In this document: in pieces, positions 14,947 to 36,654 of the stretch | Layout: every line of letters starts with the position of its first letter | Numbering within the stretch: position 1 is the first letter of the stretch | DNA from: a virus | Taxonomy: Duplodnaviria > Heunggongvirae > Uroviricota > Caudoviricetes | IMG/VR virus record: IMGVR_UViG_2778261064_000029 | DNA: 36,654 nt | Strand: one strand, 5' to 3' | Translations under genes and position numbers: made by a program | Notes under the pieces: model-generated | The model's input: only the letters and a program-made list of their open reading frames with translations | Database searches by the model: none | Told to the model about the DNA's origin: nothing

Positions 14947-14980
14947 AACACATGCTCCTCCTTTTCCTTTAAATCAGGTT

Positions 14981-15004: not shown

Positions 15005-15012
15005 AATGACGG

Positions 15013-17679: not shown

Positions 17680-18995
17680 TTATTCACCTCCACATGCCCC
17701 TCCAGTACGTCAATTATCCCGTCAGCAATCGCGGCTTCAAGCGACTGTGCAGATACGCGGCTGATACTGACCAGCACATCCGCACGGTCATTCTGTCTGC
17801 CGACTGTCTGTGATGTTCTGACCACAATCCGGGCCATGCCGTCACGGGTTGCCACAACATACAGCAACTGGTGGTTCTCCCTGTCCCACAATACCGCCTG
17901 TGGTTTTGCCATCAGCGACGGCAGACGCTGTAAATCCTCCGGTTTCAGGGCGGCATCAGAAGTGGTCGCCAGACTTTTCCCGTTCATCACAAGCAGACGG
18001 GCTGGCATATTCCCGGTGCGCTGATATACGGCCTCCGCCACGGATCCCGTCATAAAACCCAGCGCACGGACCTCATGTCCTGCCCGGCGTGATTTCGCCA
18101 GACGTTTAAGCCAGAGGGAAAAAGCAAGCTGACGCTCCCGGCTGTTATTCAGCGTCTGAACAACCTGCTCACGCAGCTGCGCGTCACGAACTTCCACCAG
18201 TTTTCGAATCAGTGCCTGATCCGTACCAAATGCCGCCGAACCGGGGTTATATGACCAGCCCACATCTGGCGTCATTTTTACCCGACCGTTGTCAAACGTG
18301 GTTGACGATGTGCGGAAAATCTCTCCGGTGCTTTCATCCGTACCGGCATCCACTTCGCGGGTATTCATGAATGACGCACCATAACTGACCTGTAGCCCCA
18401 GTTCTTTCATGCGGGCCGCAGACAGCGCCCGGACGCGACAGCGGCAGTTCCAGCCATTGGGCGGGTAATGCGTCTGCCAGAAAATGTCGTCATACCGGAA
18501 AACCATATTGTGCAGCCGCGCATGTTCCGGGCGTGTTCTGCCATCCATAACGGCAACGTACTGCCAGTACGGGTACAAATCGGCGGTATTCATCATCTGC
18601 GCATAACGTCCTGCCCCATACGCCGTACGGGTATTGACGTTATAAATGGTTGCCAGACGACGCGGACTGCCCAGTTCGATTTCCTTCGCGTTTCCCTCTG
18701 CATCCACGATGATTTGTTTTCCCCACCATCCGAGTTTTTGCAGCCGGGGGGCCAGTGTGCGGGTAAATTCCTCACGGGTGATGCCTTCACTGACAGCCCG
18801 CTCCACTTCCTCACGGATTGTGGTCAGGACATCCATCCGGGTGGCTTTGGCAACGGTAAAGGCGCGGGCGTGCGCGTCTGCCAGTTGTTCGTACCAGTTC
18901 CAGGTGATGTTGTAGCCTTTGGCGCGGAAATACGCGACAGCCTCCTTTGGCGGGAGGCGTGCGGCATACGCCAGATCAATGGTCTGCTGCGGCAT
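17676..18995 (-). CDS. Head morphogenesis protein (Mu F-like); ORF track extends to GTG 19031, ATG at 18995 preferred
   Basis: 439-451 aa immediately downstream of portal gene. Confidence 0.8.
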   Translation of the reverse strand: MPQQTIDLAYAARLPPKEAVAYFRAKGYNITWNWYEQLADAHARAFTVAKATRMDVLTTIREEVERAVSEGITREEFTRTLAPRLQKLGWWGKQIIVDAEGNAKEIELGSPRRLATIYNVNTRTAYGAGRYAQMMNTADLYPYWQYVAVMDGRTRPEHARLHNMVFRYDDIFWQTHYPPNGWNCRCRVRALSAARMKELGLQVSYGASFMNTREVDAGTDESTGEIFRTSSTTFDNGRVKMTPDVGWSYNPGSAAFGTDQALIRKLVEVRDAQLREQVVQTLNNSRERQLAFSLWLKRLAKSRRAGHEVRALGFMTGSVAEAVYQRTGNMPARLLVMNGKSLATTSDAALKPEDLQRLPSLMAKPQAVLWDRENHQLLYVVATRDGMARIVVRTSQTVGRQNDRADVLVSISRVSAQSLEAAIADGIIDVLEGHVEVNK

Positions 18996-22169: not shown

Positions 22170-22176
22170 AACCCTC

Positions 22177-22767
22177 TCATGCCTTACCCAGCAGTACATC
22201 ACGGATACGCTGCTCCAGCTCTTCGCTGATGCCATCCTGCCCGCGCAGTTCTTCACTCACGGCGTTTGCCGCTTCTTCTGCGAATGCCTGGCGGATTTCT
22301 TTCTCGCGCCGGTGGCTGGACATTGCCGTGGATTCCAGACGCTGTGCCGCCAGCATGGCATTTTTCAGCAGGTCAATATCCACGTCAGATTCCGGGGTTT
22401 CGATTTGCCGCATCATGGCCTTAAAAAGCTGGCTGCGGGCCATTTCCAGAATCAGCTTTGTGGTTTCTCCCATTGGCTTGTCGCCAAGTTCTGCGGTCAG
22501 TGCTGACGTCATTTCACGCATCTGTCGCAGGTTATGGCCTACCTGCTCGACGTTCGTCGCGTAACGGTTCAGACCGGAACGGGAGAGTTTCATCTCATCC
22601 GGCAGGCCAGCGTCTTCAATCAGTACGTTAATTTCTTCCAGAATGCGGGCCTGTGGGATCGCTTTATCACGCAGCATTTCATGCAGCGTTTTACGTACGT
22701 TTTCCGGCAGTAAATCCACTTTTGAAGCCCGGCCCCGTGTTTTCCTGTCCATCACGCCTCCTGTCAT
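22177..22767 (-). CDS. Putative terminase small subunit / DNA-binding packaging protein (Mu gp27-like)
   Basis: 196 aa; basic N-terminus with HTH-like segment, acidic helical C-terminus; precedes large terminase. Confidence 0.65.
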   Translation of the reverse strand: MTGGVMDRKTRGRASKVDLLPENVRKTLHEMLRDKAIPQARILEEINVLIEDAGLPDEMKLSRSGLNRYATNVEQVGHNLRQMREMTSALTAELGDKPMGETTKLILEMARSQLFKAMMRQIETPESDVDIDLLKNAMLAAQRLESTAMSSHRREKEIRQAFAEEAANAVSEELRGQDGISEELEQRIRDVLLGKA

Positions 22768-23054
22768 GCACGGGGACGAGGACGCTTGACACCGGCAACG
22801 CGGGCACGACCTTCTGCCACATCCTGACCTCGGGAGGTCAGCGTTACGACATAAAAGCCGCGCAGGTTTTCCACGGTGACCAGTTGCTGCTCTGCCAGCC
22901 AGTCAATCTGGCCGCGAACCACATCGCGGGAAACGTTGTGTCCGTATGCATCCAGACAGTCCTGAAGGATGGATTCGTTTGCTTCGTTATTGCAGTCCAT
23001 CAGGGAACGCAGGATGACCAGACGACGGTCTTCGGTCAGAATATCGTTAATCAT
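22764..23054 (-). CDS. Hypothetical protein (Mu gp26-like)
   Basis: 96 aa; ATGA overlaps on both sides. Confidence 0.55.
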   Translation of the reverse strand: MINDILTEDRRLVILRSLMDCNNEANESILQDCLDAYGHNVSRDVVRGQIDWLAEQQLVTVENLRGFYVVTLTSRGQDVAEGRARVAGVKRPRPRA

Positions 23055-23350
23055 GAATTACTCCGGTTTACTGCGTTTTCAAGCAGCAGCTCCAGTTGAT
23101 GGGAAAATGACTGCACCCGCTGGGACAGCACCCGGATATCGCCGGACAGCTCTGCAATTCGCAGGCGCATTTCGTGTACATCTTCTGTGCCAGGGATGCT
23201 GGCGTAGCGGGTTTCCATTTCGGTCATCCGGTTTTCAAGACGCTCCACACGCTCAGTGCTGGCAAAACTACGACGCATTGCCCAGACGGCCCCACCGGCC
23301 ACAACAGGCAACAGGTAAGGCCATAACGCTAAAACTGAAATCAAATCCAT
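23051..23350 (-). CDS. Membrane protein with N-terminal TM helix and coiled coil (Mu gp25-like, lysis-associated candidate); ATG at 23350 preferred over GTG 23368
   Basis: MDLISVLALWPYLLPVVAGGAVWAM hydrophobic segment then heptad-like region; GGAG RBS. Confidence 0.55.
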   Translation of the reverse strand: MDLISVLALWPYLLPVVAGGAVWAMRRSFASTERVERLENRMTEMETRYASIPGTEDVHEMRLRIAELSGDIRVLSQRVQSFSHQLELLLENAVNRSNS

Positions 23351-23544
23351 TATTCTGCTCCACGGCACCAGTGGCAGTAGTTCGCCATCGGCTGCTGTCT
23401 CAGCACATCAGGCCGCAGCTCACGACCGCAACCGGCACACAATACAGGCGGGTCATACGCCGCCGGGCGGGGAATATCACGGGTATCCCCCTGCCAGAGT
23501 TCAGCGAGCAGCAGCGCCACCGCCCGGTTCTGGTCTTCGTTCAT
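23350..23544 (-). CDS. Small Cys-motif protein (CAGC ... CHWC), putative zinc ribbon (Mu gp24-like)
   Basis: 64 aa; AAGGAA RBS 7 nt upstream of ATG. Confidence 0.55.
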   Translation of the reverse strand: MNEDQNRAVALLLAELWQGDTRDIPRPAAYDPPVLCAGCGRELRPDVLRQQPMANYCHWCRGAE

Positions 23545-23843
23545 AAATTTCTTTCCTTCGGGTCTCCTGTTCCCGGACTGATGCCTTGTCGCGGTTGCAC
23601 TGCCCGAGCGCCATCAACAGGTCAGCATTCCAGAGAAGGGATGCTCCCCACGTCAGGGGCTGTGGCATGGGCGGAACGGGCGTTGCTTCCGTCAGTTCTG
23701 CATCAGTTTCGGGCAGGATCACCACCGATGGCACGGGTGCGTTTTTCGAGTTCCCGCAACCTGTCAGCAGCAACGGCAGGCACAGGACGAGTGCTGCAAT
23801 TGTCACCGGTAATGGCGGTTGTAATTTTTTGTTTTGCATCATG
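23501..23843 (-). CDS. Outer-membrane spanin candidate (lipoprotein), start embedded in i-spanin gene and extending beyond it
   Basis: MMQNKKLQPPLPVTIAALVLCLPLLLTGCG lipobox-type signal, Pro-rich mature part; different frame overlapping 23703..24089. Confidence 0.5.
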
Positions 23844-24089
23844 ATGTTCTGTCTCATCTGCCAGCCGCGCGGCACGATTTGCGGCACGGATAGCGGAAAA
23901 TACCTGCATCGTCTGTTCCTGACCGTGTAACAACCATTCAGCCGTGTTGCGGGCCTGTTGCTCCGTCTGTAATTCACGGCGCAGCGTCTGGTTATCGTGG
24001 CGGGTGCTGTCCAGCCTGTGCCACAACACCCCGGACAGAACGGCGGCAAACACGGCTGCCAGCAGTAAACTTTTACTGGCGAAGGTCAT
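23703..24089 (-). CDS. Inner-membrane spanin candidate (Rz-like)
   Basis: 128 aa; N-terminal TM helix (LLLAAVFAAVLSGVLW) followed by charged helical periplasmic domain; directly after endolysin. Confidence 0.7.
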   Translation of the reverse strand: MTFASKSLLLAAVFAAVLSGVLWHRLDSTRHDNQTLRRELQTEQQARNTAEWLLHGQEQTMQVFSAIRAANRAARLADETEHHDAKQKITTAITGDNCSTRPVPAVAADRLRELEKRTRAIGGDPARN

Positions 24090-24591
24090 CCGCCCCCCTG
24101 ATATTCCAGATAGCCATTTCCACTTCGCGACGGTTCATCAGTCCTTTCCATTTATGGCCTGCGGCAAACACCCAGCGGGCCATCTGGTCACGCGCTCCGG
24201 CGTAATCACCGGCATTGAGTTTTTTCAGCAGCGTTGATTTACTGAATGCGGTAACACCGGTGTTGAAAATAAACGTTGCCAGCGCCGTTTTCTGATATGG
24301 CGTCAGCGGCACCCTGACAAGACGATCGATTGCCGCATAAACCGGTTTTAAATCACTGTCGAGGAGAGCCATACACTCCGCATGGCTGTAACGGCGCATT
24401 TCGATATCCGGCCCGGTATGCCCCACACAGACCGAAAGCACACCGCCAATATCGCGGTAAGGCATATAAGCGATATTTTCCAGGTGGATCAGAGACTGAC
24501 GGGTCATTTCCTGATAACCACCCACACCGCCACCGGCAATCGTTACAGCCAGCAGTGTGGCTTTCAGTTTTTTTGGTATCCCCGCCATCAT
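24073..24591 (-). CDS. lys: Endolysin, lysozyme-like with N-terminal signal-anchor-release type hydrophobic segment (Mu Lys-like)
   Basis: 172 aa; N-terminus MMAGIPKKLKATLLAVTIAGGGVGGYQE then lysozyme-like core; first gene after C. Confidence 0.85.
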   Translation of the reverse strand: MMAGIPKKLKATLLAVTIAGGGVGGYQEMTRQSLIHLENIAYMPYRDIGGVLSVCVGHTGPDIEMRRYSHAECMALLDSDLKPVYAAIDRLVRVPLTPYQKTALATFIFNTGVTAFSKSTLLKKLNAGDYAGARDQMARWVFAAGHKWKGLMNRREVEMAIWNIRGADDLRQ

Positions 24592-24661
24592 GCTTCCCTG
24601 AAAAAATGCTCTGATGGCAGTCTAAAAAATCAGGTGGCAGGTGCGGGATTATGGTGACAGG

Positions 24662-24688
24662 AAATAACCGGCAGGATGCCGGTTATTT
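24662..24688 (-). terminator. Perfect 12-bp-arm hairpin overlapping the C stop codon (middle-transcript terminator or P_lys-associated structure)
   Basis: aaataaccggca-gga-tgccggttattt. Confidence 0.35.
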
Positions 24689-25105
24689 TGGGCTTTCAGG
24701 TGAGAACAGATCAGGCTGATGACGTCGTGTATGCAGCTTTCTCTGGCGGGCAATAATCTGGTAGATCTGCGGCTGGGACAGGCGGTACTGGCGACGCAGT
24801 TCTTCCATGTTACGACCATTAAACTGGCAGTAAAGCAAATCGTCGCGTAACGCGGTCAGGATCGTATCGCCGCAGGGGATGTAAAACTGCCGTCCACCCA
24901 GAAAACAGGACAGGGCAACGGCCTGTTTACGGGCAAGTTCACGGGGATTGCTGACGTTCTGGCGTTTCAGTTCGTTTTCCAGAACATCAATCAGATCAAC
25001 CACCGAACGGGGCCAGCGTGATTCCAGTTCCGGGGCCGGGATGTTATCAATATGTCCGATTAACTGGCGAATTGCCGGATCGTGTTCAAATAAATCATGC
25101 TGCAT
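24683..25105 (-). CDS. C: Late transcription activator C (Mor/C family)
   Basis: 140 aa; paralogous to Mor in the window (LGGRQFYIPCGD vs LGGGQVYIPRGQ; FNGRNMEEL vs FNGRNVHEL). Confidence 0.9.
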   Translation of the reverse strand: MQHDLFEHDPAIRQLIGHIDNIPAPELESRWPRSVVDLIDVLENELKRQNVSNPRELARKQAVALSCFLGGRQFYIPCGDTILTALRDDLLYCQFNGRNMEELRRQYRLSQPQIYQIIARQRKLHTRRHQPDLFSPESPK

Positions 25106-25117
25106 ATTTTCCCCCGG

Positions 25118-25237
25118 TTAACAGACAGAAAGATACACCACGGCACTGATGGTTATCAGAACCACAAGGGCAATCACTTTTATCGCACTCATCAGCGTGG
25201 ACGGCCCGAAACATTCATCACTGAATTTTCTGTACAT
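25118..25237 (-). CDS. Candidate small membrane protein (39 aa), below the ORF-track cutoff
   Basis: MYRKFSDECFGPSTLMSAIKVIALVVLITISAVVYLSVC; single predicted TM helix; weak RBS; fills the gap upstream of C. Confidence 0.35.
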   Translation of the reverse strand: MYRKFSDECFGPSTLMSAIKVIALVVLITISAVVYLSVC

Positions 25238-25448
25238 GGTATTTTTCTCTGTAACGCCGGCAATGGTGGATAATTTCTGGCATATCAACGGACTGCCAGC
25301 CTTTCATGTAATAACTTCCGTGGGTGCCATCGTGCCCTGTGTAATCCATTGGCTTTGGTGGTGGGCCTCCGGCCTCCCGATGTAATACCTCCTGTCGTAA
25401 ACGTTCACGCCTGCCGAACTGAAAGGACGCATCCCACCCTTTACCCAT
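25218..25448 (-). CDS. Hypothetical protein, 76 aa (ATG 25448 preferred over track start 25502)
   Basis: ATG begins 3 nt after the stop of the upstream GH108-like gene (coupling). Confidence 0.5.
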   Translation of the reverse strand: MGKGWDASFQFGRRERLRQEVLHREAGGPPPKPMDYTGHDGTHGSYYMKGWQSVDMPEIIHHCRRYREKYHVQKIQ

Positions 25449-26001
25449 GCAGAACCTCCCGACAGGCGCTGGCGAGCAGATCCAGACGGTTAAACCAGCC
25501 ATTCAGATATTTCCCCTGCGAGGCACTGGATTTGATAATCCCTGCGTAATAGCGGGAACGACGCAGGAAGCACTGCAACAGCAGCCAGTCAGTATCGGCA
25601 CGCAGAACGGCTGCGCGTGTGTTTTTACCGACGATGCCATCATCATCAACACCTGCTGCCGCCTGGAGGATCTGAATCGCGCGTTTAACACCGTGCTGAA
25701 CGGCAGCATCAAAAACGAATAAGGAAACGCCATCAGGCCATTCGTTACACTTTGCCGCCAGCCAGTAATCACGCCAGTAGATCTGCGCCGCCTGCTCGCG
25801 GGTTAAATCCTTAATGCGGGTATCAGGTTTTCCGTCACCGTTAACATCGGTTTTGCCATCAATAACGCCGTCGCGACGGTCAGAAATACCGTATTTCGTT
25901 TCGCCGCCACGGTCGGCAGGATCATTAACATAGCCACCTTCAACATCAGGGCGTATAACGAAATTCAGCGAATGAAGGAATGCAGGGGAAAACTCAGGCA
26001 T
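25441..26001 (-). CDS. Peptidoglycan hydrolase candidate, GH108-type N-terminal motif plus peptidoglycan-binding-like C-terminal region
   Basis: EGGYVNDPADRGGETKYGIS motif near the N-terminus, then IYWRDYW; AGGAGG RBS 6 nt upstream; first gene after the early terminator. Confidence 0.75.
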   Translation of the reverse strand: MPEFSPAFLHSLNFVIRPDVEGGYVNDPADRGGETKYGISDRRDGVIDGKTDVNGDGKPDTRIKDLTREQAAQIYWRDYWLAAKCNEWPDGVSLFVFDAAVQHGVKRAIQILQAAAGVDDDGIVGKNTRAAVLRADTDWLLLQCFLRRSRYYAGIIKSSASQGKYLNGWFNRLDLLASACREVLHG

Positions 26002-26053
26002 GTTGCCCTCCTGTCATGAACGTTTTATCGTCACAACAGAATATTGAGGGCGT

Positions 26054-26075
26054 AAAAAAAGCCGGATTAACCGGC
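26054..26075 (-). terminator. Intrinsic terminator 8 nt after mor stop (early-operon terminator)
   Basis: Minus-strand RNA: GCCGG-UUAAU-CCGGC followed by UUUUUUU. Confidence 0.65.
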
Positions 26076-26083
26076 TTTACTGT

Positions 26084-26473
26084 TTAAAACAAAGGGGGGG
26101 AATACTGACGATACTTTATACGCCGCATTCGTCGGATGGCTTTATAGACTGTGTTAAATGTCACACCATGACGGATTGCCAGTTCGTGAACATTGCGACC
26201 GTTGAAATCATTCCAGATACGCAAATCCCGAATAAGCGAATCCAGAACCTGACCGCGTGGAATGTAGACCTGACCGCCGCCCAGATGCTTACAGATAGCC
26301 ACAACAATCTCCAGTGAATGGGCCGGGTCAACACCTAACCGGGACAATTCCCCGCGCAGTAAATCGTTCAGCTCCGCCAGCAGTGCCGGAAAGCGTGACG
26401 TATCCTCTGCGGGATTGTCAAGATGTGCCAGGATGGTGTCATCCTGCAAATCACCAAATAAATCTTCCGTCAT
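26084..26473 (-). CDS. mor: Middle operon regulator Mor (Mor/C family activator)
   Basis: 129 aa; paralog of C; ATGA overlap with gemA. Confidence 0.9.
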   Translation of the reverse strand: MTEDLFGDLQDDTILAHLDNPAEDTSRFPALLAELNDLLRGELSRLGVDPAHSLEIVVAICKHLGGGQVYIPRGQVLDSLIRDLRIWNDFNGRNVHELAIRHGVTFNTVYKAIRRMRRIKYRQYSPPLF

Positions 26474-27021
26474 TGTGCCATCCTCCGTGTCTTTCTGGCA
26501 CGGGCATAAGCCGCCGTCATGGCATCATAGCCGCGCAGTTCACGCCCGGACGGACTGACTGGCAACGGAAGCCCGTGACGGGAAAAGGCTTCACGAATAC
26601 AGCGGATATGCCACTGCTTGAGAGTTTCGAGAACAATCAACAGGGTGTCGCCATGACACCACGCCAGCGTGGAAACACCCTGTCTGCCATTACGTTTCGC
26701 CGTCAGGCGCTGAACATATTTATCCAGCGCCACATCACCGTCATCGGTAATAAAACCGTCTTCTGCCATCTGCTGCCAGACTTTGTATACCTTCTCGCGG
26801 GGCGTGACATGCCCCTTAAAGCGGCGACGTGGATGTTTATTCAGCTTCTTAAAGCCGCGTTCTTTCATGGCATCGAGCACCTGTTCCAGTTGCGTAACCG
26901 TCAGCTCGCGGCAACTGATTTTGCCCGTTTTCTGCATCAGAAAAGCGCGGTAAGTGTCGTCGTCGAGTTGTAGCTCCCGACGGGCGACATGGATTAATTT
27001 AATCAGGGATGTGCGATTCAT
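26470..27021 (-). CDS. gemA: GemA-like early protein
   Basis: 183 aa; position immediately upstream of mor; GGAGG RBS. Confidence 0.8.
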   Translation of the reverse strand: MNRTSLIKLIHVARRELQLDDDTYRAFLMQKTGKISCRELTVTQLEQVLDAMKERGFKKLNKHPRRRFKGHVTPREKVYKVWQQMAEDGFITDDGDVALDKYVQRLTAKRNGRQGVSTLAWCHGDTLLIVLETLKQWHIRCIREAFSRHGLPLPVSPSGRELRGYDAMTAAYARARKTRRMAQ

Positions 27022-27090
27022 GATCGTACCTCCGGAAAGAGGCGGTGCTGCAACACCGCCTGAATTTACACATCAATCAGAGAGGATTTT

Positions 27091-27357
27091 ATGGAAAATA
27101 ATGTACAACCTTATGATGTTGCAGGTTATGCGATTGCATCAGCACTGGTGCGCCTTCTGGTGAAGAAGGCGATCATCACCGCAGAAGAGGGCCAGGCCAT
27201 TTTCAGCTCTTCAGCAGAGATTTTAAAAGATGCGCCTGCAATAAGAACAAGCCGCCGCGAAAACATGCAACTGTCAAAGATCATGGAAGACATTATCAGT
27301 TCGTTATACCCAGATGCTGACGGATCTCAAAAGCCTCAAACACATGAGCGTCAGTAA
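27091..27357 (+). CDS. Candidate reverse-oriented ORF (88 aa) in the gap between the last accessory early gene and gemA
   Basis: ATG with AGAGAGGA 5 nt upstream; no minus-strand ORF fills 27022..27295; 3' end overlaps convergent gene 27296..27598 by 62 nt. Confidence 0.3.
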   Translation: MENNVQPYDVAGYAIASALVRLLVKKAIITAEEGQAIFSSSAEILKDAPAIRTSRRENMQLSKIMEDIISSLYPDADGSQKPQTHERQ

Positions 27358-27598
27358 CAATATCCTGGTCTGATAACCCCAGCCTGCGGCGGATGTACTC
27401 CTCGCGGGCTGTTTCATTTTGCAGTGCCACTACTGTTTCCAGACGATTCATTTCGCGGTTGATAATGTCACGGACTTCTCTGGCGGTGAGATTATGCTTA
27501 ATACCATATTCAACGATAGCGCGAACACGTTCCAGCATCCCTTTTTCAGCCATGACGTTATCAATATTAAGGGGAGTAAATTTATCTTCATTTTTCAT
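27296..27598 (-). CDS. Early accessory protein, unknown function (Mu gp15 position)
   Basis: 100 aa; ATGA overlap with upstream gene. Confidence 0.65.
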   Translation of the reverse strand: MKNEDKFTPLNIDNVMAEKGMLERVRAIVEYGIKHNLTAREVRDIINREMNRLETVVALQNETAREEYIRRRLGLSDQDIVTDAHVFEAFEIRQHLGITN

Positions 27599-27903
27599 TT
27601 TGCGGCCCTCAGAATAAATTCAGGATAAAATTTCAGACTCATTTGCCGTAACACATCCAGTGCAGCAACGGCTGCTGATTTATCGTTGCCATCAGCAATA
27701 GCGCGGAGATTTTCAATAATCCAGTGAGGACTCAGTGACTCAGCAATAATGCCAAACCGGTACGCCATGACCTCATCAATAGCTTTTTCATGAGACGGCT
27801 CATATACAAAATTCACAAAGTCATGCACTTCTTTTTTCGGCAAACCACCGGCAATCAGCAGGGCGGCAAGCTCTTCTGATTTTGAAAATACACCATTATT
27901 CAT
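27595..27903 (-). CDS. Early accessory protein, unknown function (ATG 27903 preferred over GTG 27918)
   Basis: About 102 aa; AAGGTGAG upstream. Confidence 0.6.
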   Translation of the reverse strand: MNNGVFSKSEELAALLIAGGLPKKEVHDFVNFVYEPSHEKAIDEVMAYRFGIIAESLSPHWIIENLRAIADGNDKSAAVAALDVLRQMSLKFYPEFILRAAK

Positions 27904-27904
27904 G

Positions 27905-28087
27905 TCACTCACCTTCACAATTCATGCACGCCGTGTCATCGCCCATATCGCAGTGGTTACATTTCTGCCCGCCACAATGAGGGCACTCTTTCAGATATTC
28001 AGGGGATTCATTACCGCAGGTCGGGCATTCCTGTTTCACCGTGGTAAATTTCCCCAGCCACGAATACGATGTTTCATTGTTTTCCAT
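27905..28087 (-). CDS. Small Cys-rich zinc-ribbon-like protein (8 Cys, 2 His in 60 aa)
   Basis: CPTCG...CPHCGG..CNHC...CMNC; GGAGG RBS 6 nt upstream. Confidence 0.6.
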   Translation of the reverse strand: MENNETSYSWLGKFTTVKQECPTCGNESPEYLKECPHCGGQKCNHCDMGDDTACMNCEGE

Positions 28088-28604
28088 TGTTTACCTCCGC
28101 CTGTTTTTGCGCCCGGATAAATTCGTCAGAAAGGATTTCAGTCATGCGGCCCTGTGCGGGAGTCATCCCTGTCATGACGTAAATCACATCACCAACACGG
28201 AACCACCGGAGCGGGCCGAATATTGTTGCGCTGAAATCCAGTCCCAGTGCGGGTAAGAGAGCGTCAGTACGGGCATAAGTGACCGGAATATTCTCCTGCC
28301 ATATTTTCGCCAGCTCTTTTGACTGCTCCCGCAGATGTGCAGGAATGCGCGATGTTCTTGGCCTGCAACTGTTACCTGATGCGGAGCGTTGTACAGTCCA
28401 CAACTCCGGCGAGAAAGGTCGCTCATTCCCCGGAAAATTCACGCCATGAAAATGACGCCCACCAATACCTGTGCTGAATACTGACCGGCAACCACAACCC
28501 AGAACCTTATCAAGATGGCGGGCTTCTTCGCGTAGTTTCAGGCAGTCCGCCATAAACTGGTCCCATGCCAGCAGTGCTGCGGGATTTGACGTTTTAAAAA
28601 ACAT
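28074..28604 (-). CDS. Early accessory protein, unknown function (ATG 28604 preferred; track start 28643)
   Basis: About 176 aa; 1-nt stop/start overlap with upstream gene. Confidence 0.6.
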   Translation of the reverse strand: MFFKTSNPAALLAWDQFMADCLKLREEARHLDKVLGCGCRSVFSTGIGGRHFHGVNFPGNERPFSPELWTVQRSASGNSCRPRTSRIPAHLREQSKELAKIWQENIPVTYARTDALLPALGLDFSATIFGPLRWFRVGDVIYVMTGMTPAQGRMTEILSDEFIRAQKQAEVNNGKQ

Positions 28605-29134
28605 CACGCCACCTCCTGCATCGTTGCGGGAGCCGGAGAACAATCAAGAATGAGATAACGCAGTACATGGTCGGTGATATTCCAGGCGCTTGAACTGCAA
28701 ATAAAACGCCCCAGCCGGATATCGATATAAGCCATCACAAAACGGGGCATTCCCTGTTCGCACATTTCGTCATCCACTTCCGCAACGATGTAAACCGACT
28801 CGCAGGTCAGTACGCCTGTTGCAAATTCTTTTGCCAGTGCCGGAATGGCATTGCCTTCCAGCCAGGGCAATGAGCGGCGGAAGGAACACCACGCGGCATC
28901 ATCAACAGCAGGCTGCTCAGTTGCGTTTCGTCTTACAGGCGGCGTCGGACGCGGGCGCGGAACGTCATAAAATCCGTTGCATTCGGTGAGCACTCCGGCA
29001 TCAACCGCATCACGCAGGAAATACACCATTGACGAGGGCAGCATATTCATTTTTTCAGCCAGAACTCCGCAGGTCAGGCGTCCGTAAGCCCGTAATAATG
29101 TGCTGACACCATTCAGAATTTTTGCATCAACCAT
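28604..29134 (-). CDS. Early accessory protein, unknown function; N-terminal region resembles a winged-helix fold
   Basis: 176 aa; GAGGAA RBS. Confidence 0.6.
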   Translation of the reverse strand: MVDAKILNGVSTLLRAYGRLTCGVLAEKMNMLPSSMVYFLRDAVDAGVLTECNGFYDVPRPRPTPPVRRNATEQPAVDDAAWCSFRRSLPWLEGNAIPALAKEFATGVLTCESVYIVAEVDDEMCEQGMPRFVMAYIDIRLGRFICSSSAWNITDHVLRYLILDCSPAPATMQEVA

Positions 29135-29232
29135 GTTTTATTCCTCAGTAATCTGTTTCAGGCGCGAGCAATCCCCTGACGCATCGCGCCATAATTAAAA
29201 GAATGTGAATTAATTAAATATTAATGGTGGTA

Positions 29233-29757
29233 TTAAATACCGGCTTCCTGTTCAAATGGAATAATGGAAAAATCTTCAATTCCCGATTTAACCGTAATTC
29301 CGGCAACACCTGCGACGGCTTTTGGTTCCAGTAAAATCGCCTCCTTGTTGATTTCCTGCTTCGTGCGAATAAAGCGTTGCAGGCCAAGACGCTCCAGCGT
29401 TTCCATCACTGCATCCATACCACGAATACTTACTGATGGTGGACGGACCCGCCACGATACATCACCGGTGACAAGATTTGCCGTCTTCACTTTGCCGCCG
29501 TTCGTCAGTTCGTCGCGGTTCGCTTCACACCATCCCTGAACGCCTTTTGAAAGGGTTTCAATATCGGTTTTAATCGGTGCAATCCGGGCCGCAAATTTCT
29601 CCGTAATTTCCGCGATGGCATCATTCATTTCCGTTTCCAGACGTGATGCTTCGCGCTGTAAATCCCCGATGCGTTTAATATCGGTAATCACCGCATCGCG
29701 GTTTTGTGGCACATAAGCCGCTGCGGCACTTTTGATACGTTTTGCTGGTTTAGCCAT
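29233..29757 (-). CDS. gam: Gam, DNA-end-binding host nuclease inhibitor (Ku-like)
   Basis: 174 aa; MAKPAKRIKSAAAAYVPQNRDAVITDIKRIGDLQREASRLETE...; AGGAG RBS. Confidence 0.85.
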   Translation of the reverse strand: MAKPAKRIKSAAAAYVPQNRDAVITDIKRIGDLQREASRLETEMNDAIAEITEKFAARIAPIKTDIETLSKGVQGWCEANRDELTNGGKVKTANLVTGDVSWRVRPPSVSIRGMDAVMETLERLGLQRFIRTKQEINKEAILLEPKAVAGVAGITVKSGIEDFSIIPFEQEAGI

Positions 29758-29776
29758 AAATTAAAGCTCCTGTTAA

Positions 29777-30076
29777 TTAATATCCGCTGTATACAATGCT
29801 GGATACATCTCGATTGCTTAATTCCATCTTTCGGGCAATGACATGAATATCCAGTCCTTCTTTATAAAGTTCACGACATAAATATTTGTCGTGTTCACTG
29901 ATTCGGTATACACACAATGATATTCCGTGCCTTCTGGCATGTGCCCGGAGGGCGGTTGTGGCGACTTTCAGTTTTTCCGCCATTTCTTCAATGGTCATTT
30001 TCCCGACGTTGGCTTCGATAAATTCCCGGTCTTCGCGTGACCAGCGCTTACGATTACACTTCATGTCAGTCACCAT
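29777..30076 (-). CDS. Small putative DNA-binding protein with HTH-like segment
   Basis: 99 aa; MTIEEMAEKLKVATTALRAHARRHG. Confidence 0.55.
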   Translation of the reverse strand: MVTDMKCNRKRWSREDREFIEANVGKMTIEEMAEKLKVATTALRAHARRHGISLCVYRISEHDKYLCRELYKEGLDIHVIARKMELSNRDVSSIVYSGY

Positions 30077-30496
30077 TCAGTACAGCAGAGGCTCGCGCAG
30101 TGATGCCGGAATATGCCGCAGCGATAACTGAACCGCTTTCAGGGCAAGCGAGGAATAACAGCAGCGCGCCCAGCCTTTTGCCATTAACCGGTAATCGCGC
30201 CAGATACGCTGCCACATTTCACGGGCTTCAGGGTCTGATGCGCAGATGTATTCCCGGTCCATGACGTACTCCCATAAATCCACGTTGAACGCACCGCCAA
30301 ATGCAATGGCGCGGGATATGCTTTCGCCGCAATAACGCGCACAGATGCTGTAATGGTCGAAAGCAATCAGGTAAGTCTTTTCACCACAATCATCAACTTT
30401 CCGGGCGCAAATAAACTCGCGTAATTCACCACCGTTGTTATTGCGTTCCTGAATTCGGATTAATGCCTGAATTTCATTTCGGATTTTGACATTCAT
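30077..30496 (-). CDS. Early accessory protein, unknown function (ATG 30496 with AAGGAA RBS preferred over track start 30520)
   Basis: About 139 aa. Confidence 0.55.
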   Translation of the reverse strand: MNVKIRNEIQALIRIQERNNNGGELREFICARKVDDCGEKTYLIAFDHYSICARYCGESISRAIAFGGAFNVDLWEYVMDREYICASDPEAREMWQRIWRDYRLMAKGWARCCYSSLALKAVQLSLRHIPASLREPLLY

Positions 30497-30510
30497 TGTC
30501 AGCGTTCCTT

Positions 30511-30774
30511 TTAGTGACATGTTTTTTCAACAGCCATTTCAGTGACACTGCCACCTGTGATGACACCATCGTTTTTCAAAATCTCAATGGCTTCATGAGC
30601 TGACTCATTAATTATTTTCTGGCTTTTGTTAAGCACCAATAACGCCACCAGACCTGCAAGTGTAGCCTCATCCCCTTCCATTTCCACACTACCACCTACC
30701 GCAATACTGGTGCGCAAATGCCGTCCTTTAGTTCCAGATACTGTATTTTTAATTTCAATAATTACCTTTGCCAT
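30511..30774 (-). CDS. Early accessory protein, unknown function
   Basis: 87 aa; AAGGAG RBS. Confidence 0.6.
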   Translation of the reverse strand: MAKVIIEIKNTVSGTKGRHLRTSIAVGGSVEMEGDEATLAGLVALLVLNKSQKIINESAHEAIEILKNDGVITGGSVTEMAVEKTCH

Positions 30775-30785
30775 TTTGTTTCTCC

Positions 30786-31016
30786 TTATTGATTCTGAAT
30801 AACTGCGCTGGCTTTTACCTTTGCGCCTTTTACCTGCTTAAAGAAAACCACGCTGCACCACGGACAACATGCAAAGGAGTCCCATACTTCATTTTCTGGT
30901 GAGCATTGCGTCATAATTTGCTCTTTGCATTTGGGGCAATTAAATGCAGTCAGAGGCACATTGTTATTCTGTACCCGTTTAACCCATTCAATATATTTTT
31001 CAGCTTTAGTACACAT
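30786..31016 (-). CDS. Small Cys-motif protein (CPKC ... CCPWC), zinc-ribbon-like (ATG 31016 preferred over track start 31040)
   Basis: About 76 aa; GGAG RBS; starts 2 nt after kil-position gene stop. Confidence 0.55.
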   Translation of the reverse strand: MCTKAEKYIEWVKRVQNNNVPLTAFNCPKCKEQIMTQCSPENEVWDSFACCPWCSVVFFKQVKGAKVKASAVIQNQ

Positions 31017-31018
31017 CG

Positions 31019-31246
31019 TTATCTCCAGATAATCTGGCAACCATTAAGACGGGCCGTCCATACAGAACGGGCCACCCCGGACTTATGCTCCATAATTCTG
31101 ACCGCGCTTTTTACCAGTTCCACCGGTGGGTAAGTGATTTCAAGAATCGGACGCGCCACGCCGAGATATGATTCATTTACATGACTCCCGCGCGCCTGTA
31201 ACCAGTTCTGCGCATCCGTTGCCATTTTTATATTTCGGGCCATCAT
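31019..31246 (-). CDS. kil: Kil-position early protein (first gene downstream of B)
   Basis: 75 aa; AAGGAG RBS; assignment by position and size only. Confidence 0.55.
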
Positions 31247-31261
31247 AATTTCTTCTCCTTC

Positions 31262-32200
31262 TTAATTACGCAGCAGCGTTGAAATATCAACGTCCAGGTC
31301 TAATTCACGGAAAGCCTGACGCAGATAATCTTCGTTAACACGCTCACCTTTACCGTGAGCCGTCATGGCGGCAAGGCGAAGTGAATGATTCAGAATGCGA
31401 AGCGCACCTGGTTTCTGCGCAATCTGCTGTAATAACTCCAGTTCTTTTTCGCCGTTAATCTGCCAGGCATCCGCAATAGCTTTTACATCGGCTTTTTTGG
31501 TTTTATTAATTGCAGTACGCTTTGCAATACGGGAAAACAGACGGGCAAATTCAACCGTTCTGTTACCCCCCGTCATATTTGAATAAACCCGGTGATTTCC
31601 CATCAGTACAAGGCCAATACGGGTTGATTCCTGTAACAGGCGGAGTTCTTCCAGAACTTCGGCACCAAGATGATCAGCTTCGTCGATGATAACCAGCCCC
31701 TGTGTACCTTCAAGGCGACGTCGCAGGGCGCGGGAGAGCGGCCCTTTACGGCGTGGTGCGTCATTCATTCCCAGCTCAAACGCCAGTTCAGTAAGACATT
31801 CCAAAACGCTGGCACAGGATGGCGTAATGGTGATCATCCAGACATTGTTATTGGTGCGGCGATATTCACGGGCCGCTTCGGTTTTGCCCACACCAGGATT
31901 GCCACATACAACAGCAATACTTTCAGTCAGGCTGGCAAAACGCATACTTGTCCAGATTTGTTTTACCGTCTGCGTTTCCACAAAGCGGGGCGGTTCAGGT
32001 AGTTCTGCAACTGCATGATATTTTTCCAGCCAGCGTTGCAGCATTTGTGAAACACGCTCGTTATCCCCGTTGTACTTATCATTGATAAAACTACTGATAG
32101 TTCCGGTAGAAAGTCCGCTCTCAAGAGCAATTTGTTTAAAGGTGGTTTCTTCATTTTCTACAAGCGTGCGCAGTCCTGCGCGAATATCGGAAATATTCAT
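31262..32200 (-). CDS. B: Transposition target-DNA activator MuB, AAA+ ATPase
   Basis: 312 aa; N-terminal HTH-like region, Walker A GNPGVGKT, Walker B-like LVIIDEAD. Confidence 0.9.
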   Translation of the reverse strand: MNISDIRAGLRTLVENEETTFKQIALESGLSTGTISSFINDKYNGDNERVSQMLQRWLEKYHAVAELPEPPRFVETQTVKQIWTSMRFASLTESIAVVCGNPGVGKTEAAREYRRTNNNVWMITITPSCASVLECLTELAFELGMNDAPRRKGPLSRALRRRLEGTQGLVIIDEADHLGAEVLEELRLLQESTRIGLVLMGNHRVYSNMTGGNRTVEFARLFSRIAKRTAINKTKKADVKAIADAWQINGEKELELLQQIAQKPGALRILNHSLRLAAMTAHGKGERVNEDYLRQAFRELDLDVDISTLLRN

Positions 32201-32238
32201 CTGAATAACCTCGTAATTAAATTTTGTTAAAACGTTAA

Positions 32239-34245
32239 TTAAATGACTTTTTTACGTCTGTTCTGTTCCAGAATATCCAGTGAATGATTCAGATATTCAT
32301 CACGATCAGTTTCATATTCATCATCGGCTTCCTGGTATTTCACCTGCACCGTGTTACCGGAAGGCCGGAAAATACCAACAACCCTTGATTCTGGTGCTGC
32401 TGGTTCGGCTATCTGCGGCAGCAGTTCAGCAACTTCCAGCGCGTCCATTTGTTTCTGCGCCTTAATGGCTGCTTTAGTTGCAGATTTCAGTTGTTTCTGG
32501 CGGCGGCGATATTCACGGCCTGCCGCTGCATCATTAAATGCAACAGGTGCCAGACATTCCGCTTCACAGATAAACCGACCGTCCAGGGTGTAACAATAAA
32601 CCGTGCTGTGTAGCTGCTGCGGATCAAACCTGACCACAACTTTTTTCACGCCGGCATTCATTAATGCCATGTTGTAATAAACGTTTTTTGCGCCTTTAAG
32701 GGAGCCGCCAACTTTAAGCGTAAACTCGCCTTTGCGTGAAACGTTCACCGCCTCGGCAGGCAGTAACAGCATCCGTTTTTGTTCTTCGGTTGGCTTACGC
32801 ACAATCGTTCTGGCGTATTCACGCTCGAAAACATCATCAAACGAGAGTTTGCCCCCGCACATTTCTGTTTCACGGCCTGTTCTGGCATTGAACATCGCCA
32901 CACCTTCGGCAAGGGTTTTCAGAAACAGCTCTGCATCAACAGCGCGGTCGCCATAGTTATCAGGTTTTGCCTGCGGATTTGGCCCCGTATATGCGCCAGC
33001 CAGTGCCGGATGCTTATCAACGTATTCCTCAAGCCCACCAACACCGAAAGCACGTTCAACAGGTTTTGCCTGGCCCCAGCCTTTACCGGCAACAACGCTT
33101 GTCCAGTGCATTTTCGCGCCCATCAGTAAAAACAGTCCCTTTGGATCGTCCTCTTTTACCTTAAAGCGGTAACGATTGGGCGCGCCCCCCGTCAGCCATT
33201 TATTCGCTGCACCACGGGTGTTATCAATGGTGATGTGAAAATCCTCCGGGATGCCGTAGCGTGTCACCACATCCATAAACGAGAGGCGAATTGAGTCGAT
33301 GTTCTCGCTTACATCGCAACGCCAGCCCAGAATTTTTCGGGTTTTCACATCCTGCCAGAACCATGTTTTCGGGCGGATCACATCACCGTTAAACCAGCGT
33401 ACAAAGACGTTATGCAGATAACCGTCGCCGTTGATCCACTGCATGGCGTCCAGGTGTTCCACAGTTCGCTGCTGTGCCGGTATCAGATGCATCAGTGCAT
33501 GTTCACCTTCACGACAGGCAACAACCATTGCCTCGTCCAGTTGCTGAATCCGGCGAAAGGCCGTGGCACGGGAGGGAATACTCCAGCCATGCTCGCGGGC
33601 TGCCAGTTCCAGACGCTCATAACATTTGCGGAAGGCGGGCTTTTCCGGTCGCAGATAATCTGCAATCAGAAACTGCCAGGCATCCTCGTCAAATTCACTT
33701 TTGTGAACGTTGCGACGGGATGCACCACGTCCATCAACAAGCGCAGCCGCCCAGTCAGGCTTCGCAAACTTCTGTACCTGGTAATACTTGTCCCGCAAAG
33801 TGGATGCGCTGACCTGGTAATGCCCTGCAACGGTCGCAAAAGCCGTTTTTGTTGAAATCCCCTGGTTCAGCATTTCGTCTGCGGCCTGAACCGCAGGCAA
33901 CCATTTTTCAGCAAGTCTGCGCTGGGAATCGCTGGCGTTATCCCATTTGCTCCACAGTGCCTCACGATCATAATCATGGGCTTCCAGCGTGGGGCGGGCG
34001 ATTTCAAAACGGCCCTGGCTTGTTTCGATCTCTCCTTGTCTAAGCAACAACGCAGCTTGCGTTTCCTTTGGTAAAGATGAGATATGAAACTCATAGGCTA
34101 CTCCTCTTACCCCGTGTATCTGTCGAAACACCCACTGTTCTAACCTTGCTTTACGAGAGATCGCGCTAGAGGATTTTGGAAGACCTATCAGCCCTTCTAA
34201 TTTCTTTGCAGAAAACCAATCATTACATTGTGGTTGCATTTTCAA
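32239..34245 (-). CDS. A: DDE transposase MuA
   Basis: 668 aa; N-terminal domain paralogous to c repressor N-terminus; ATGA overlap with ner. Confidence 0.95.
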
Positions 34246-34460
34246 TACCTCGAAGGCCAGATGTCTCGTGGCTCAACTCCCAATGCATCGGCAATGATTC
34301 TTTCCCCCCGAGGGTAAGGTTTATCCAAGGCATTTTTTACCGTAGAGATAGAGAGACCGTTCTCACGACCAAGAGCTGCTAGGCTTTTTCCTCTTTTGCG
34401 CAGATCAGCAACAATGTCGTATCTACTTTTGTCTTCACATTTACTTTTCTTTATCGCCAT
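34242..34460 (-). CDS. ner: Ner-like DNA-binding early regulator (ATG 34460; track start 34469 is TTG)
   Basis: 72 aa from [72 protein letters not shown]; resembles Ner C-terminal ...IIANAL...IWPSRY. Confidence 0.85.
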
Positions 34461-34660
34461 AAAATGCAATCCTCACAAGCTACGCCATCAGCTACGCCGC
34501 AAGGTAGCTGATAAGGTATGCAGCAATGCTAGTGTGAATACATTGTCAATGCAATAGTGTATTCAAATGTTTTGTTTGAAATTCATCTATCTCGATGATT
34601 TTAAAGTGAATATATTTTTCATTTCTTTGAATACATCGTGTATTTAAAGCGAGGTTTGTG
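34461..34660. promoter_or_regulatory. Divergent early/repressor promoter-operator region (Pe leftward for ner-A-B, Pc rightward for c), expected to overlap the transposition enhancer
   Basis: 200-bp AT-rich interval between divergent ner and c; AGCTAC repeats at 34478..34510 and TGAATACA / GTGTATTC repeats at 34534..34567 and 34626..34645. Confidence 0.7.
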
Positions 34661-35176
34661 ATGACACAAGAATGGTTTTCAGCTAAAGAGCTACAAGGGG
34701 TTGCTGGTCTTCCGTCTTCAGCAAGTAGTATTAGCCGCAAAGCAACTAATGAGGGATGGAAAAAGAGACAGATCAAAGGAGTAAAGGGTGTTGCTTATGA
34801 ATACCATATCAGCTCATTACCTGATGCCACTCAGGCAGAATTAGGAGGGGCGCAGTTATTAGATAACGATAAGTCAGCTTATAAGTTAGCTTCTGTGTTA
34901 ATGGCTTTGGTTGCAGAGTTAGAACCAGAGGAAATCCAGAGGGCATTAAAGCTACTTAGTAAAGGTGGACTTAGTGCACTAATGCCAAGTATCTTTGATC
35001 AGACTCAAATCCAATCTCTGCACGGCGTATCGCGTGAGTGCATACAACTCGCCCAAATGCTAGAAACTTTACCAGCAGAAGAGCGCAAAGAGATTTTGTC
35101 AGAGCATGGTATTCATGAACAGGAAGGTCTTGTAGCTCCTTCGCAAGAACCACAAGATGTAAAAAAAGCCGTATAA
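34661..35176 (+). CDS. c: Repressor c (immunity repressor)
   Basis: 171 aa from ATG 34661 (GAGG 5 nt upstream); N-terminal domain paralogous to MuA N-terminus; C-terminus ...[27 protein letters not shown]. Confidence 0.85.
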
Positions 35177-35339
35177 CAACCATGAACCAGCTAAAACATA
35201 CTTCACCTCACATAATCACACATGTAACATACCTAAACGGCATGAGCTGATTTGTGATATGAGTCATTTGGTTACAGCCTGGTTGTTATCGGTTTTGAAC
35301 GTTTTTTGAAGCTGTTATTGAAATGATTTGCAGTGTTTT

Positions 35340-35514
35340 TGTTTTTCGTATTTTCAATGAAACAAAAGCAATTTTTTACTATCTTTCGCGTTTCATTGAT
35401 TAACGACTAAAATTTGCGCTACAGGCTTGCAAGCCCCACCAAATCTAATCCCATCAGATCCCGAATAATCCAATGTCCTCCCGGTTTTTTTCGTACTTCA
35501 AGTGAATCAATACA
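35340..35514 (-). repeat. Left-end attachment region with three MuA end-binding repeat units (L1-L3-like) and terminal 5'-TG
   Basis: Repeats around 35340..35368, 35386..35414 and 35487..35510 share the YGTTTCAYT...CGAAA pattern on the minus strand; last prophage base 35514. Confidence 0.85.
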
Positions 35515-35749
35515 ATAAAATATTCCATCTATCGTTTGTTAAAAGCGTAGATAACCACTTATTTAACAACTTGAAAATAAGGTATTTTACCTGGGTTGTT
35601 ACAAAAGGATTGCATTGCGTAAACGCTTTTTATTTACAAAAAAATGGGGAAGTGTTACAGCGATTGCGAAAAGTCTGAAGCAATTGAATTAAGATAATAT
35701 AGAAAATCAGATACAGCAAAAATGGCAGATTGATGAGGTGAAGATAAAT

Positions 35750-35823
35750 TGGAGCGGGCGAAGGGAATCGAACCCTCGTATAGAGCTTGGGAAGCTCTCG
35801 TTCTACCATTGAACTACGCCCGC
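35750..35823 (-). tRNA. glyU: tRNA-Gly (anticodon CCC)
   Basis: Reverse complement gives GCGGGCGTAGTTCAATGGTAGAACGAGAGCTTCCCAAGCTCTATACGAGGGTTCGATTCCCTTCGCCCGCTCCA, 74 nt, 7-bp acceptor stem, CCA end. Confidence 0.95.
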
Positions 35824-35901: not shown

Positions 35902-36654
35902 TCAGCATTTTGGCTTGCTGCCCTGAGGCGGCAAGTAACGTAGCGGATCAATTGCCGTTGCACGGTAACGAATCTGGAAATGCAGGCGAACCGATGCCGC
36001 ATCAGTGCTCCCCATAGTGGCGATTTTTTGCCCAGCCTTCACGCTTTGCCCATTATTTACCAGCATCGTGTCATTATGGGCGTAAGCCGTAATGTAATCT
36101 TCACTGTGTTTAATCATGATGAGATTACCGTAGCCACGCAGCTGGTTGCCCACATACACCACCTTTCCTGCACCCGCGGCGTAAATAGGTGTACCCCGTG
36201 GAGCTGAGATATCAATCCCTTTATTGCCGCCATCAGCTGTCGAATACGGCATGATAACTTTCCCTGTCGTTGGCCATAACCAACAACGTTGCCCTACTGG
36301 CGGCCAGGAAGATTTTGGTACTGCTGATGACGGTGTAACCGATGCGGTTTTGGTCGTTGATTTGGCGGTTGATTTACGTGTACTGCTACTTTTCGCCCCA
36401 CCCAGTTTTAGTTTCTGACCAACTTCAATGGTGTAAGGGGGGGAAATGCCGTTCAGCCGCGCCAGCTCTTTTACGCTGGTTCCCGTGGTGCGCGAAATAC
36501 GATATAGCGTATCCCCCCGTTTCACGGTGTAAACGGAGCCGGAATACGTTCCTGTATCGGATGATTTGCTACCCGAACAGCCCGCCAAAAGCAGTCCAAC
36601 CGATAACAACATCACGATACCCAGAGATTTTTTATTCAGGCGTCCCGCACTCAA
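35902..36654 (-). CDS. ygeR: Host lipoprotein with LysM domain and M23 peptidase domain (YgeR/NlpD-like); reaches the window edge, so the 5' end may be incomplete (track start is TTG)
   Basis: Lipobox LLLAGCSG; LysM YTVKRGDTLYRISRTTGTSVKELARLNGI; M23-like C-terminal half. Confidence 0.8.
   Translation of the reverse strand: MSAGRLNKKSLGIVMLLSVGLLLAGCSGSKSSDTGTYSGSVYTVKRGDTLYRISRTTGTSVKELARLNGISPPYTIEVGQKLKLGGAKSSSTRKSTAKSTTKTASVTPSSAVPKSSWPPVGQRCWLWPTTGKVIMPYSTADGGNKGIDISAPRGTPIYAAGAGKVVYVGNQLRGYGNLIMIKHSEDYITAYAHNDTMLVNNGQSVKAGQKIATMGSTDAASVRLHFQIRYRATAIDPLRYLPPQGSKPKC

What the first reader, a model, noticed from the sequence alone, without database searches (positions are those of the whole stretch)
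35340..35520. Exact prophage-host junction of a Mu-type transposable phage, 235 bp from a tRNA-Gly gene
The Mu-type terminus (MuA-binding repeats, terminal TG) ends at 35514 and unrelated host sequence begins at 35515. There is no integrase or att core, so this is a transposition insertion rather than site-specific integration at the tRNA. The element looks intact (no frameshifted or truncated genes seen), so it is plausibly inducible and mutagenic. The 5 bp 35515..35519 (ataaa) should be the target-site duplication.
Basis: partly seen in the sequence, partly recalled or inferred. Interest (0 to 1): 0.45.

Follow-up and report, generated by a model that had tools for sequence, protein, structure and literature searches.

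The report
Left end of a Mu-type prophage
This is the exact point where a complete Mu-family transposable phage joins the E. coli chromosome, with the expected 5-base duplication on its far side in a near-identical genome; it is a correct but textbook-ordinary observation.

Summary
Read on the minus strand, window 35275-35514 matches bases 1-240 of phage Mu with 2 mismatches. Mu base 1 (5'-TG) is window 35514. Similarity to E. coli chromosomes begins exactly at 35515, and the tRNA-Gly(CCC) gene lies 235 bases further on.

An unoccupied site reads ...ccctttc|ATAAA|atattcc..., with no base shared between the phage end and the site.

The window's own contig (GCA_002965585.1) stops 2 bases before the window start, inside an inverted repeat of the G segment. 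The right end could therefore not be read there. A chromosome that differs by 3 SNPs in about 26.7 kb (AP025754.1) carries the same insertion: 37,202 bp long, right end 1,688 bp beyond the window start, ATAAA on both sides.

MuA (DDE transposase) and MuB are present. No integrase or att core is present. Every Mu gene in the window except gp19 has a full-length, single-frame counterpart.

Inducibility is untested. The repressor is a third immunity type: 96% identical to PhiR68_1, 46% to Mu, 40% to D108.

This is known biology and of low interest.

The parts
35340..35514 (-). attL: the left end of the Mu-type prophage, carrying the MuA-binding sites L1, L2 and L3
   Evidence: Matches Mu nt 1-175 with one mismatch, at nt 97 in the L1-L2 spacer. 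The L1-L3 architecture is described in PMC3145075.
35488..35506 (-). Core of MuA-binding site L1 (phage nt 9-27)
   Evidence: 0 mismatches to the recalled MuA-site consensus.
35383..35404 (-). MuA-binding site L2 (about phage nt 111-132), assigned by identity to Mu
   Evidence: The sequence TAATCAATGAAACGCGAAAG is identical to Mu at these positions. It is one base shorter than the consensus, so the ungapped scan did not find it. The coordinates of L2 come from memory of Craigie et al. 1984.
35343..35361 (-). Core of MuA-binding site L3 (phage nt 154-172)
   Evidence: 0 mismatches to the consensus.
35513..35514 (-). Terminal dinucleotide: CA on the + strand, 5'-TG on the phage strand. This is where MuA cleaves and joins.
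   Evidence: The role in cleavage is established knowledge of Mu transposition.
35515..35519 (.). ATAAA: the left-end copy of the 5-bp target-site duplication
   Evidence: Present once in the empty site. Present at both ends of the element in AP025754.1, at record positions 3487380-84 and 3524587-91.
1..35514 (-). Body of the prophage, from the left end to inside the G segment. About 1,688 bp (rest of the G boundary, gin, com, mom, attR) lie beyond the window start.
   Evidence: Colinear with Mu at 94-98% identity over most of its length. Element length 37,202 bp in AP025754.1.
34661..35176 (+). c repressor, 171 aa, PhiR68_1-type immunity
   Evidence: Pfam HTH_Tnp_Mu_1 only. Identity 95.9% to PhiR68_1, 45.9% to Mu, 39.5% to D108.
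34242..34469 (-). ner
   Evidence: Pfam HTH_35. 50% identical to Mu Ner.
32239..34245 (-). MuA transposase (the mechanical ORF is 668 aa; it is called as 666 aa in AP025754.1)
   Evidence: Pfam DDE_2 with E = 2e-136, plus HTH_Tnp_Mu_1, HTH_Tnp_Mu_2 and Mu-transpos_C. 93.5% identical to Mu A.
31262..32200 (-). MuB, the target-capture ATPase
   Evidence: 100% identical to Mu B. Pfam AAA_22 and Phage-MuB_C.
35520..35749 (.). Host spacer between the duplication and the tRNA, AT-rich (31% GC over 35515-35749). It was formerly the 5' region of the GH15 (ygeQ-like) gene, which now lies on the far side of the prophage.
35750..35823 (-). tRNA-Gly(CCC) (glyU), intact
   Evidence: ARAGORN. 35515-35900 is 100% identical to three unoccupied genomes.
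35902..36654 (-). Host gene actS/ygeR (LysM + M23 amidase activator)
   Evidence: Pfam LysM and Peptidase_M23. Annotated as actS in L001.

Best explanation
Window 35340-35514 is attL, the left end of a complete 37.2-kb prophage of the phage Mu family (genus Muvirus). The prophage lies in reverse orientation in an E. coli chromosome.

It arrived by MuA-catalysed DDE transposition. MuA bound to L1-L3 and R1-R3 pairs the two ends and joins their 3'-OH CA termini to the two target strands 5 bp apart. Repair of the gaps then duplicates the 5 bp ATAAA. The target lies in an AT-rich spacer 235 bp beyond the 3' end of glyU, at the ATG of a GH15 (ygeQ-like) gene.

Shown here: the identity and exact position of the end, the transposition genes, the empty site, and both junctions with the duplication in a near-identical genome.

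Inferred from established Mu biology: the chemistry of insertion. A single copy acquired by infection, rather than by movement within the cell, is a further inference from the data here. That the prophage is still active is also inferred.
For: - End identical to Mu nt 1-240 apart from 2 mismatches; E-value 0 against the Mu records.
- Host similarity begins at 35515 in all 30 listed hits of a search that matched 5,413 of 5,426 genomes.
- The empty site holds ATAAA once and shares no bases with the phage end.
- AP025754.1 has ...ccctttc ATAAA TGAAGCGGCGCACG... at the right end and ...AATCAATACA ATAAA atattcc... at the left end. The element is 37,202 bp. The site rebuilt by removing the element and one ATAAA matches L001 at 395 of 400 positions.
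- MuA and MuB domain architecture is as expected.
- 50 of 51 Mu genes are full length and in a single frame.
- 18 independent insertions elsewhere (9 left ends, 9 right ends) end at exactly the same bases next to unrelated flanks.
- Of 19 junction pentamers (those 18 plus this one), 15 fit N-Y-S-R-N against 12.5% expected by chance (P about 7e-11). This matches the published CYSRG preference of MuA (PMC7350765).
- The junction occurs in at least two independent assemblies.
Against: - The duplication was not seen in the window's own assembly, because the contig ends in the G segment.
- ATAAA departs from the N-Y-S-R-N preference at its central base. That consensus is described as degenerate.
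- Activity was not tested. Missense or regulatory defects cannot be excluded by sequence.
Confidence: 0.95

Rival explanations
1. The prophage integrated by site-specific recombination at the tRNA-Gly gene, through an integrase and an att core, as most tRNA-linked prophages do.
For: Only its nearness to a tRNA gene, 235 bp away.
Against: - No integrase-family domain appears in the gene calls of the element, and the body is colinear with Mu.
- The empty site and the phage end share no bases.
- The tRNA is intact and its 3' end is not duplicated.
- The same ends sit at many unrelated loci.
- The duplication is 5 bp.
Confidence: 0.01
2. The end is real, but the prophage is a fixed, inactive remnant inherited vertically within a clone. 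On this view it is neither inducible nor mutagenic.
For: - The same insertion occurs in several assemblies that differ by only 0-3 SNPs. This shows stable vertical inheritance.
- The repressor has no self-cleavage domain.
- No induction data exist.
Against: - Both ends, MuA, MuB and all checked structural genes are full length.
- Contigs break at both G-segment inverted repeats in different assemblies, which suggests that Gin still inverts the segment.
- The relatives PhiR68_1 and SfMu are deposited or described as phages in their own right (PMC4406740).
Confidence: 0.2
3. The junction is an assembly chimera that joins a Mu-like contig to the glyU region.
For: The source is a draft assembly whose contig ends inside the prophage.
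Against: - The same junction is present in a complete chromosome, AP025754.1, together with the reciprocal right junction and a matching duplication.
- The source contig is recorded in 4 samples.
Confidence: 0.01

Closest known systems
Escherichia phage Mu (NC_000929 / AF083977), genus Muvirus
   Same: - Left end identical apart from 2 of 240 bases, and the same TG terminus.
- In AP025754.1 the last 45 bases of the right end, to ...GCCGCTTCA, are identical to Mu.
- Gene order is colinear, with 94-98% nucleotide identity over most of the genome.
- MuB, Gam and several other proteins are 100% identical.
- Invertible G segment, and a 5-bp duplication.
   Different: - The immunity region differs: c is 46% and Ner 50% identical, and the N-terminus of A differs.
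- gp19 is replaced by a GH108 + PG_binding_3 gene.
- About 290 bp (phage nt 7622-7913) have no nucleotide match in Mu.
- The variable part of the S tail fibre is different.
- The element is 37,202 bp against 36,717 bp.
Escherichia phage PhiR68_1 (PV340575)
   Same: - Same immunity type: c is 95.9% identical, and the first 4.7 kb are 97.3% identical.
- Same left end.
- Its record also shows a 5-bp duplication, TTCAA, at both ends.
   Different: - PhiR68_1 has an extra 'D108-specific protein' gene between mom and attR, and a variant R1 region. The element here has the Mu-type right end.
- PhiR68_1 also lacks the GH108 cassette.
Phages D108 and SfMu (heteroimmune relatives of Mu)
   Same: The same family principle applies: a Mu-like body and ends combined with a swapped c/ner immunity module (PMC4406740).
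   Different: The repressor here is only 39.5% identical to D108's and 40.5% to SfMu's. It is therefore not the D108 immunity type.

Membership tests
Mu-type transposable phage (Muvirus): prophage end attL | The element ends in 5'-TG...CA-3', at the same base in every copy | tested here: met
   The left end is in the window and the right end is in AP025754.1. The position is invariant across 18 other independent insertions and the Mu reference.
Mu-type transposable phage (Muvirus): prophage end attL | [quoted passage not shown] | tested here: met
   L1 and L3 match the consensus with 0 mismatches and are the only such matches in the window. L2 is assigned by identity to Mu. Binding itself was not assayed.
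Mu-type transposable phage (Muvirus): prophage end attL | A MuA DDE transposase and a MuB AAA+ target-capture protein encoded next to the left end, after c and ner | tested here: met
   Pfam DDE_2 at 2e-136 with the Mu HTH domains and Mu-transpos_C; MuB has AAA_22 and Phage-MuB_C.
Mu-type transposable phage (Muvirus): prophage end attL | A 5-bp target-site duplication flanking the element | tested here: met
   ATAAA flanks both ends in AP025754.1, which has the same insertion and 3 SNPs relative to the window, and occurs once in the empty site. It could not be tested in the window's own contig.
Mu-type transposable phage (Muvirus): prophage end attL | Insertion at many unrelated sites, with only a degenerate N-Y-S-R-N / CYSRG preference | tested here: met
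   The flanks are all different. There are 52 places in 44 genomes, and the 12 listed lie under different host features. 15 of 19 pentamers fit N-Y-S-R-N; this one does not, because its central base is A/T. This is a preference, not a requirement (PMC7350765).
Mu-type transposable phage (Muvirus): prophage end attL | Replicative transposition on induction, and virions that carry variable host DNA at both ends | not testable with these tools
   This needs induction and sequencing of virion DNA or of junction reads.
Integrase-type prophage inserted at a tRNA gene | A tyrosine or serine integrase next to one end | tested here: not met
   No integrase-family domain appears in the gene calls of the element. 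The only recombinase is the Gin invertase, which lies outside the window.
Integrase-type prophage inserted at a tRNA gene | An att core shared by phage and host, usually overlapping the 3' end of the tRNA | tested here: not met
   No bases are shared at the breakpoint. The junction lies 235 bp from the intact tRNA.

The most novel reading that the evidence does not exclude
The insertion may do more than sit passively in the chromosome. It lies exactly at the ATG of a GH15 (ygeQ-like) lipoprotein gene beside the ETT2 secretion island. It cuts that gene off from its own promoter and ribosome-binding site, and places it directly downstream of mom and in the same orientation. The gene could therefore be silenced in lysogens, or expressed only when late phage transcription reads through. 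Separately, the prophage combines a non-Mu, non-D108 immunity module with an extra GH108 muramidase-like gene, which might give it induction or lysis behaviour unlike Mu's.
Probability: 0.08. Interest if true: 0.3.

Novelty: already known. Interest (0 to 1): 0.12.

Why it matters
It matters little beyond correct annotation. It shows that this clone of E. coli carries a complete Mu-family prophage at a defined site, with its boundaries known to the base. That helps in interpreting the draft assembly, whose contigs break at the invertible G segment, and in strain typing. It also warns that the strain may release a mutator phage. It adds one natural example of a Mu insertion at an off-consensus, AT-rich target, and of a third immunity type on a Mu backbone. 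None of this challenges what is known about Mu.

Tried and rejected
- Exact-pattern scans for the predicted right junction (CCCTTTCATAAATGAAGCGGCGCAC) and the observed left junction found nothing in viral contigs, genome contigs or metagenome contigs. The relevant assemblies are simply not in those collections. The exact-protein index found them instead.
- I first assumed that the immunity region was D108-type, because PhiR68_1 carries a 'D108-specific protein'. tblastn showed only 39.5% identity to D108 c, so I dropped that label.
- I could not retrieve the right-end contig of the window's own assembly. A homology search to get round this seemed unlikely to surface that particular short-flank contig, so I did not spend it.
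- An ungapped consensus scan did not find L2, which is one base shorter than the consensus.
- The review I tried to read by PMC id (PMC4486318) is not held.
- A terminator scan of 35100-35950 gave nothing informative for glyU.

Full report
**What is there**

The last 1.3 kb of the window reads, on the minus strand from 35514, TGTATTGATTCACTTGAAGTACGAAAAAAACC.... Aligned with phage Mu (NC_000929), window 35275-35514 matches Mu nt 1-240 without gaps. The only two mismatches are at nt 97 and nt 236, and Mu nt 1 is window 35514. Megablast of the left-end region finds Mu, two Mu-like Yersinia phages and Escherichia phage PhiR68_1 with E = 0.

A MuA-site consensus recalled from Craigie et al. 1984 matches the whole window only twice at up to 2 mismatches, both with 0 mismatches: at 35488-35506 (L1) and 35343-35361 (L3). 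Shuffled sequence gives 0.28 matches on average. L2 is one base shorter than the consensus and was placed by identity to Mu. The architecture of three MuA sites at each end is described in PMC3145075.

**The boundary**

Megablast of 35200-35900 against 5,426 complete E. coli genomes matches 5,413 of them. In all 30 listed hits the match starts at query position 316, which is window 35515, and no genome holds the junction.

An unoccupied site in strain 2013C-4282 (L001) reads ...agatttccctttc|ATAAA|atattcc... Nothing to the left of the breakpoint resembles the phage end, so the boundary at 35514/35515 is unambiguous. tRNA-Gly(CCC) is at 35750-35823 on the minus strand. Exactly 235 bases therefore separate the phage end from the 3' end of the tRNA. 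The next gene, 35902-36654, is actS/ygeR.

**The right end and the duplication**

The window cannot show the right end. Its source contig, GCA_002965585.1 PTRP01000020.1, is identical to the window over 15,225 bases. It begins 2 nt before window position 1, inside one arm of the inverted repeat that bounds the G segment.

From the empty site and the Mu right end I predicted the right junction CCCTTTC-ATAAA-TGAAGCGGCGCAC. Pattern scans of three collections found nothing. An exact-protein look-up with the window's U' gene then returned AP025754.1 (GCA_030295215.1), where mom-com-gin abut a GH15 gene.

The sequence there is ...cagatttccctttc|ATAAA|tgaagcggcgcacgaaaaacgc.... A second look-up with MuB showed that the same chromosome carries the window's left junction. 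In record coordinates:
- the element runs from 3487385 to 3524586, which is 37,202 bp;
- ATAAA lies at 3487380-84 and at 3524587-91;
- removing the element and one ATAAA rebuilds the empty site, with 5 mismatches in 400 bp to L001.

AP025754.1 differs from the window by 3 SNPs in about 26.7 kb of overlap. One of them is R188C in gp47.

**Transposition, not integration**

The genes next to the end are:
- c (HTH_Tnp_Mu_1 only);
- ner (HTH_35);
- MuA (HTH_Tnp_Mu_1, HTH_Tnp_Mu_2, DDE_2 at 2e-136, Mu-transpos_C);
- MuB (AAA_22, Phage-MuB_C).

No integrase-family domain appears in the gene calls of the element; the only recombinase is Gin.

Eighteen independent insertions elsewhere (9 left ends, 9 right ends) end at exactly TGTATTG... 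or ...GCTTCA next to unrelated flanks. Of 19 junction pentamers, counting this one, 15 fit N-Y-S-R-N (P about 7e-11). This agrees with the degenerate CYSRG preference attributed to MuA (PMC7350765).

This site, ATAAA/TTTAT, keeps Y2 and R4 but has A/T at the centre. It lies in AT-rich DNA, 30-33% GC within 25-50 bp on either side against 44% for the whole locus.

Mu-type left ends occur in 44 of 5,426 complete E. coli genomes, at 52 places. The 12 listed lie under different host features.

**Intactness and kinship**

Of 51 Mu genes tested, from c to S', 50 have full-length single-frame counterparts in the window. Only gp19 has none. Most of the body is 94-98% identical to Mu.

The first 4.7 kb, which include the c/ner immunity region, match PhiR68_1 at 97.3%. 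The repressor is 95.9% identical to PhiR68_1's, 45.9% to Mu's, 40.5% to SfMu's and 39.5% to D108's. This is a further heteroimmune type, not D108's.

The right end is Mu-type and lacks PhiR68_1's extra gene.

Whether the prophage can be induced is untested. The repressor has no S24 domain. SfMu, a relative, was reported to be UV-inducible (PMC4406740).

**Verdict**

The observation and the interpretation are both correct. The feature is a textbook Mu-family attL/host junction. It is of low interest and its kind is already known.

Noticed in passing
window 1-48 and about 3059-3114 (L004 9028-9083 / 12094-12149): Draft contigs of this prophage break at the two inverted repeats that bound the invertible G segment. 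The window's source contig starts 2 nt before window position 1, and two other assemblies (L025, L027) start at window 3110. This suggests that both G orientations were present in the sequenced cultures, meaning Gin is active in the lysogen. L005 and L008 carry G in the opposite orientation.
   Followed up: partly
window 35515-35749; L004 5731-7347: The insertion point is at the ATG of a GH15 (ygeQ-like) lipoprotein gene next to ETT2 type III secretion genes. The ATG survives within or beside the duplication, but the native 5' region is now 37 kb away. The gene sits directly downstream of mom in the same orientation.
   Followed up: partly
window 25441-26001 (-): An extra gene with GH108 and PG_binding_3 domains lies between mor and C, where Mu has gp19. 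It has no nucleotide match in Mu or PhiR68_1. The normal Mu endolysin is also present at 24073-24591.
   Followed up: partly
window about 27602-27893; ORF 27595-27918 (-): A stretch of about 290 bp in the semi-essential early region has no match in Mu (and lies within a larger block with no match in PhiR68_1). It encodes a 107-aa ORF with no Pfam match.
   Followed up: no
window about 2120-3059 (within S, 2057-3610): The variable C-terminal part of the S tail fibre has no nucleotide match to Mu or PhiR68_1. Only residues 1-194 of Mu S align. This suggests a different receptor specificity in the G(+) orientation.
   Followed up: no
L019, L020, L021 (CP151071.1): One E. coli chromosome carries three Mu-like prophages at different sites. 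Their repressors are 174, 171 and 196 aa long, consistent with polylysogeny by heteroimmune phages of the Mu family.
   Followed up: no
L005 13714-14900; L010 about 7280-7463: Mu-like right ends are found next to F-type traS/traT/traI genes (an insertion in a conjugative plasmid region) and inside a lambdoid prophage.
   Followed up: no
window 34551: One of the three SNPs relative to AP025754.1 lies in the c-ner intergenic region, which holds the operators and the enhancer. The other two are at 4664 (gp47 R188C) and 11484 (in gp41).
   Followed up: no
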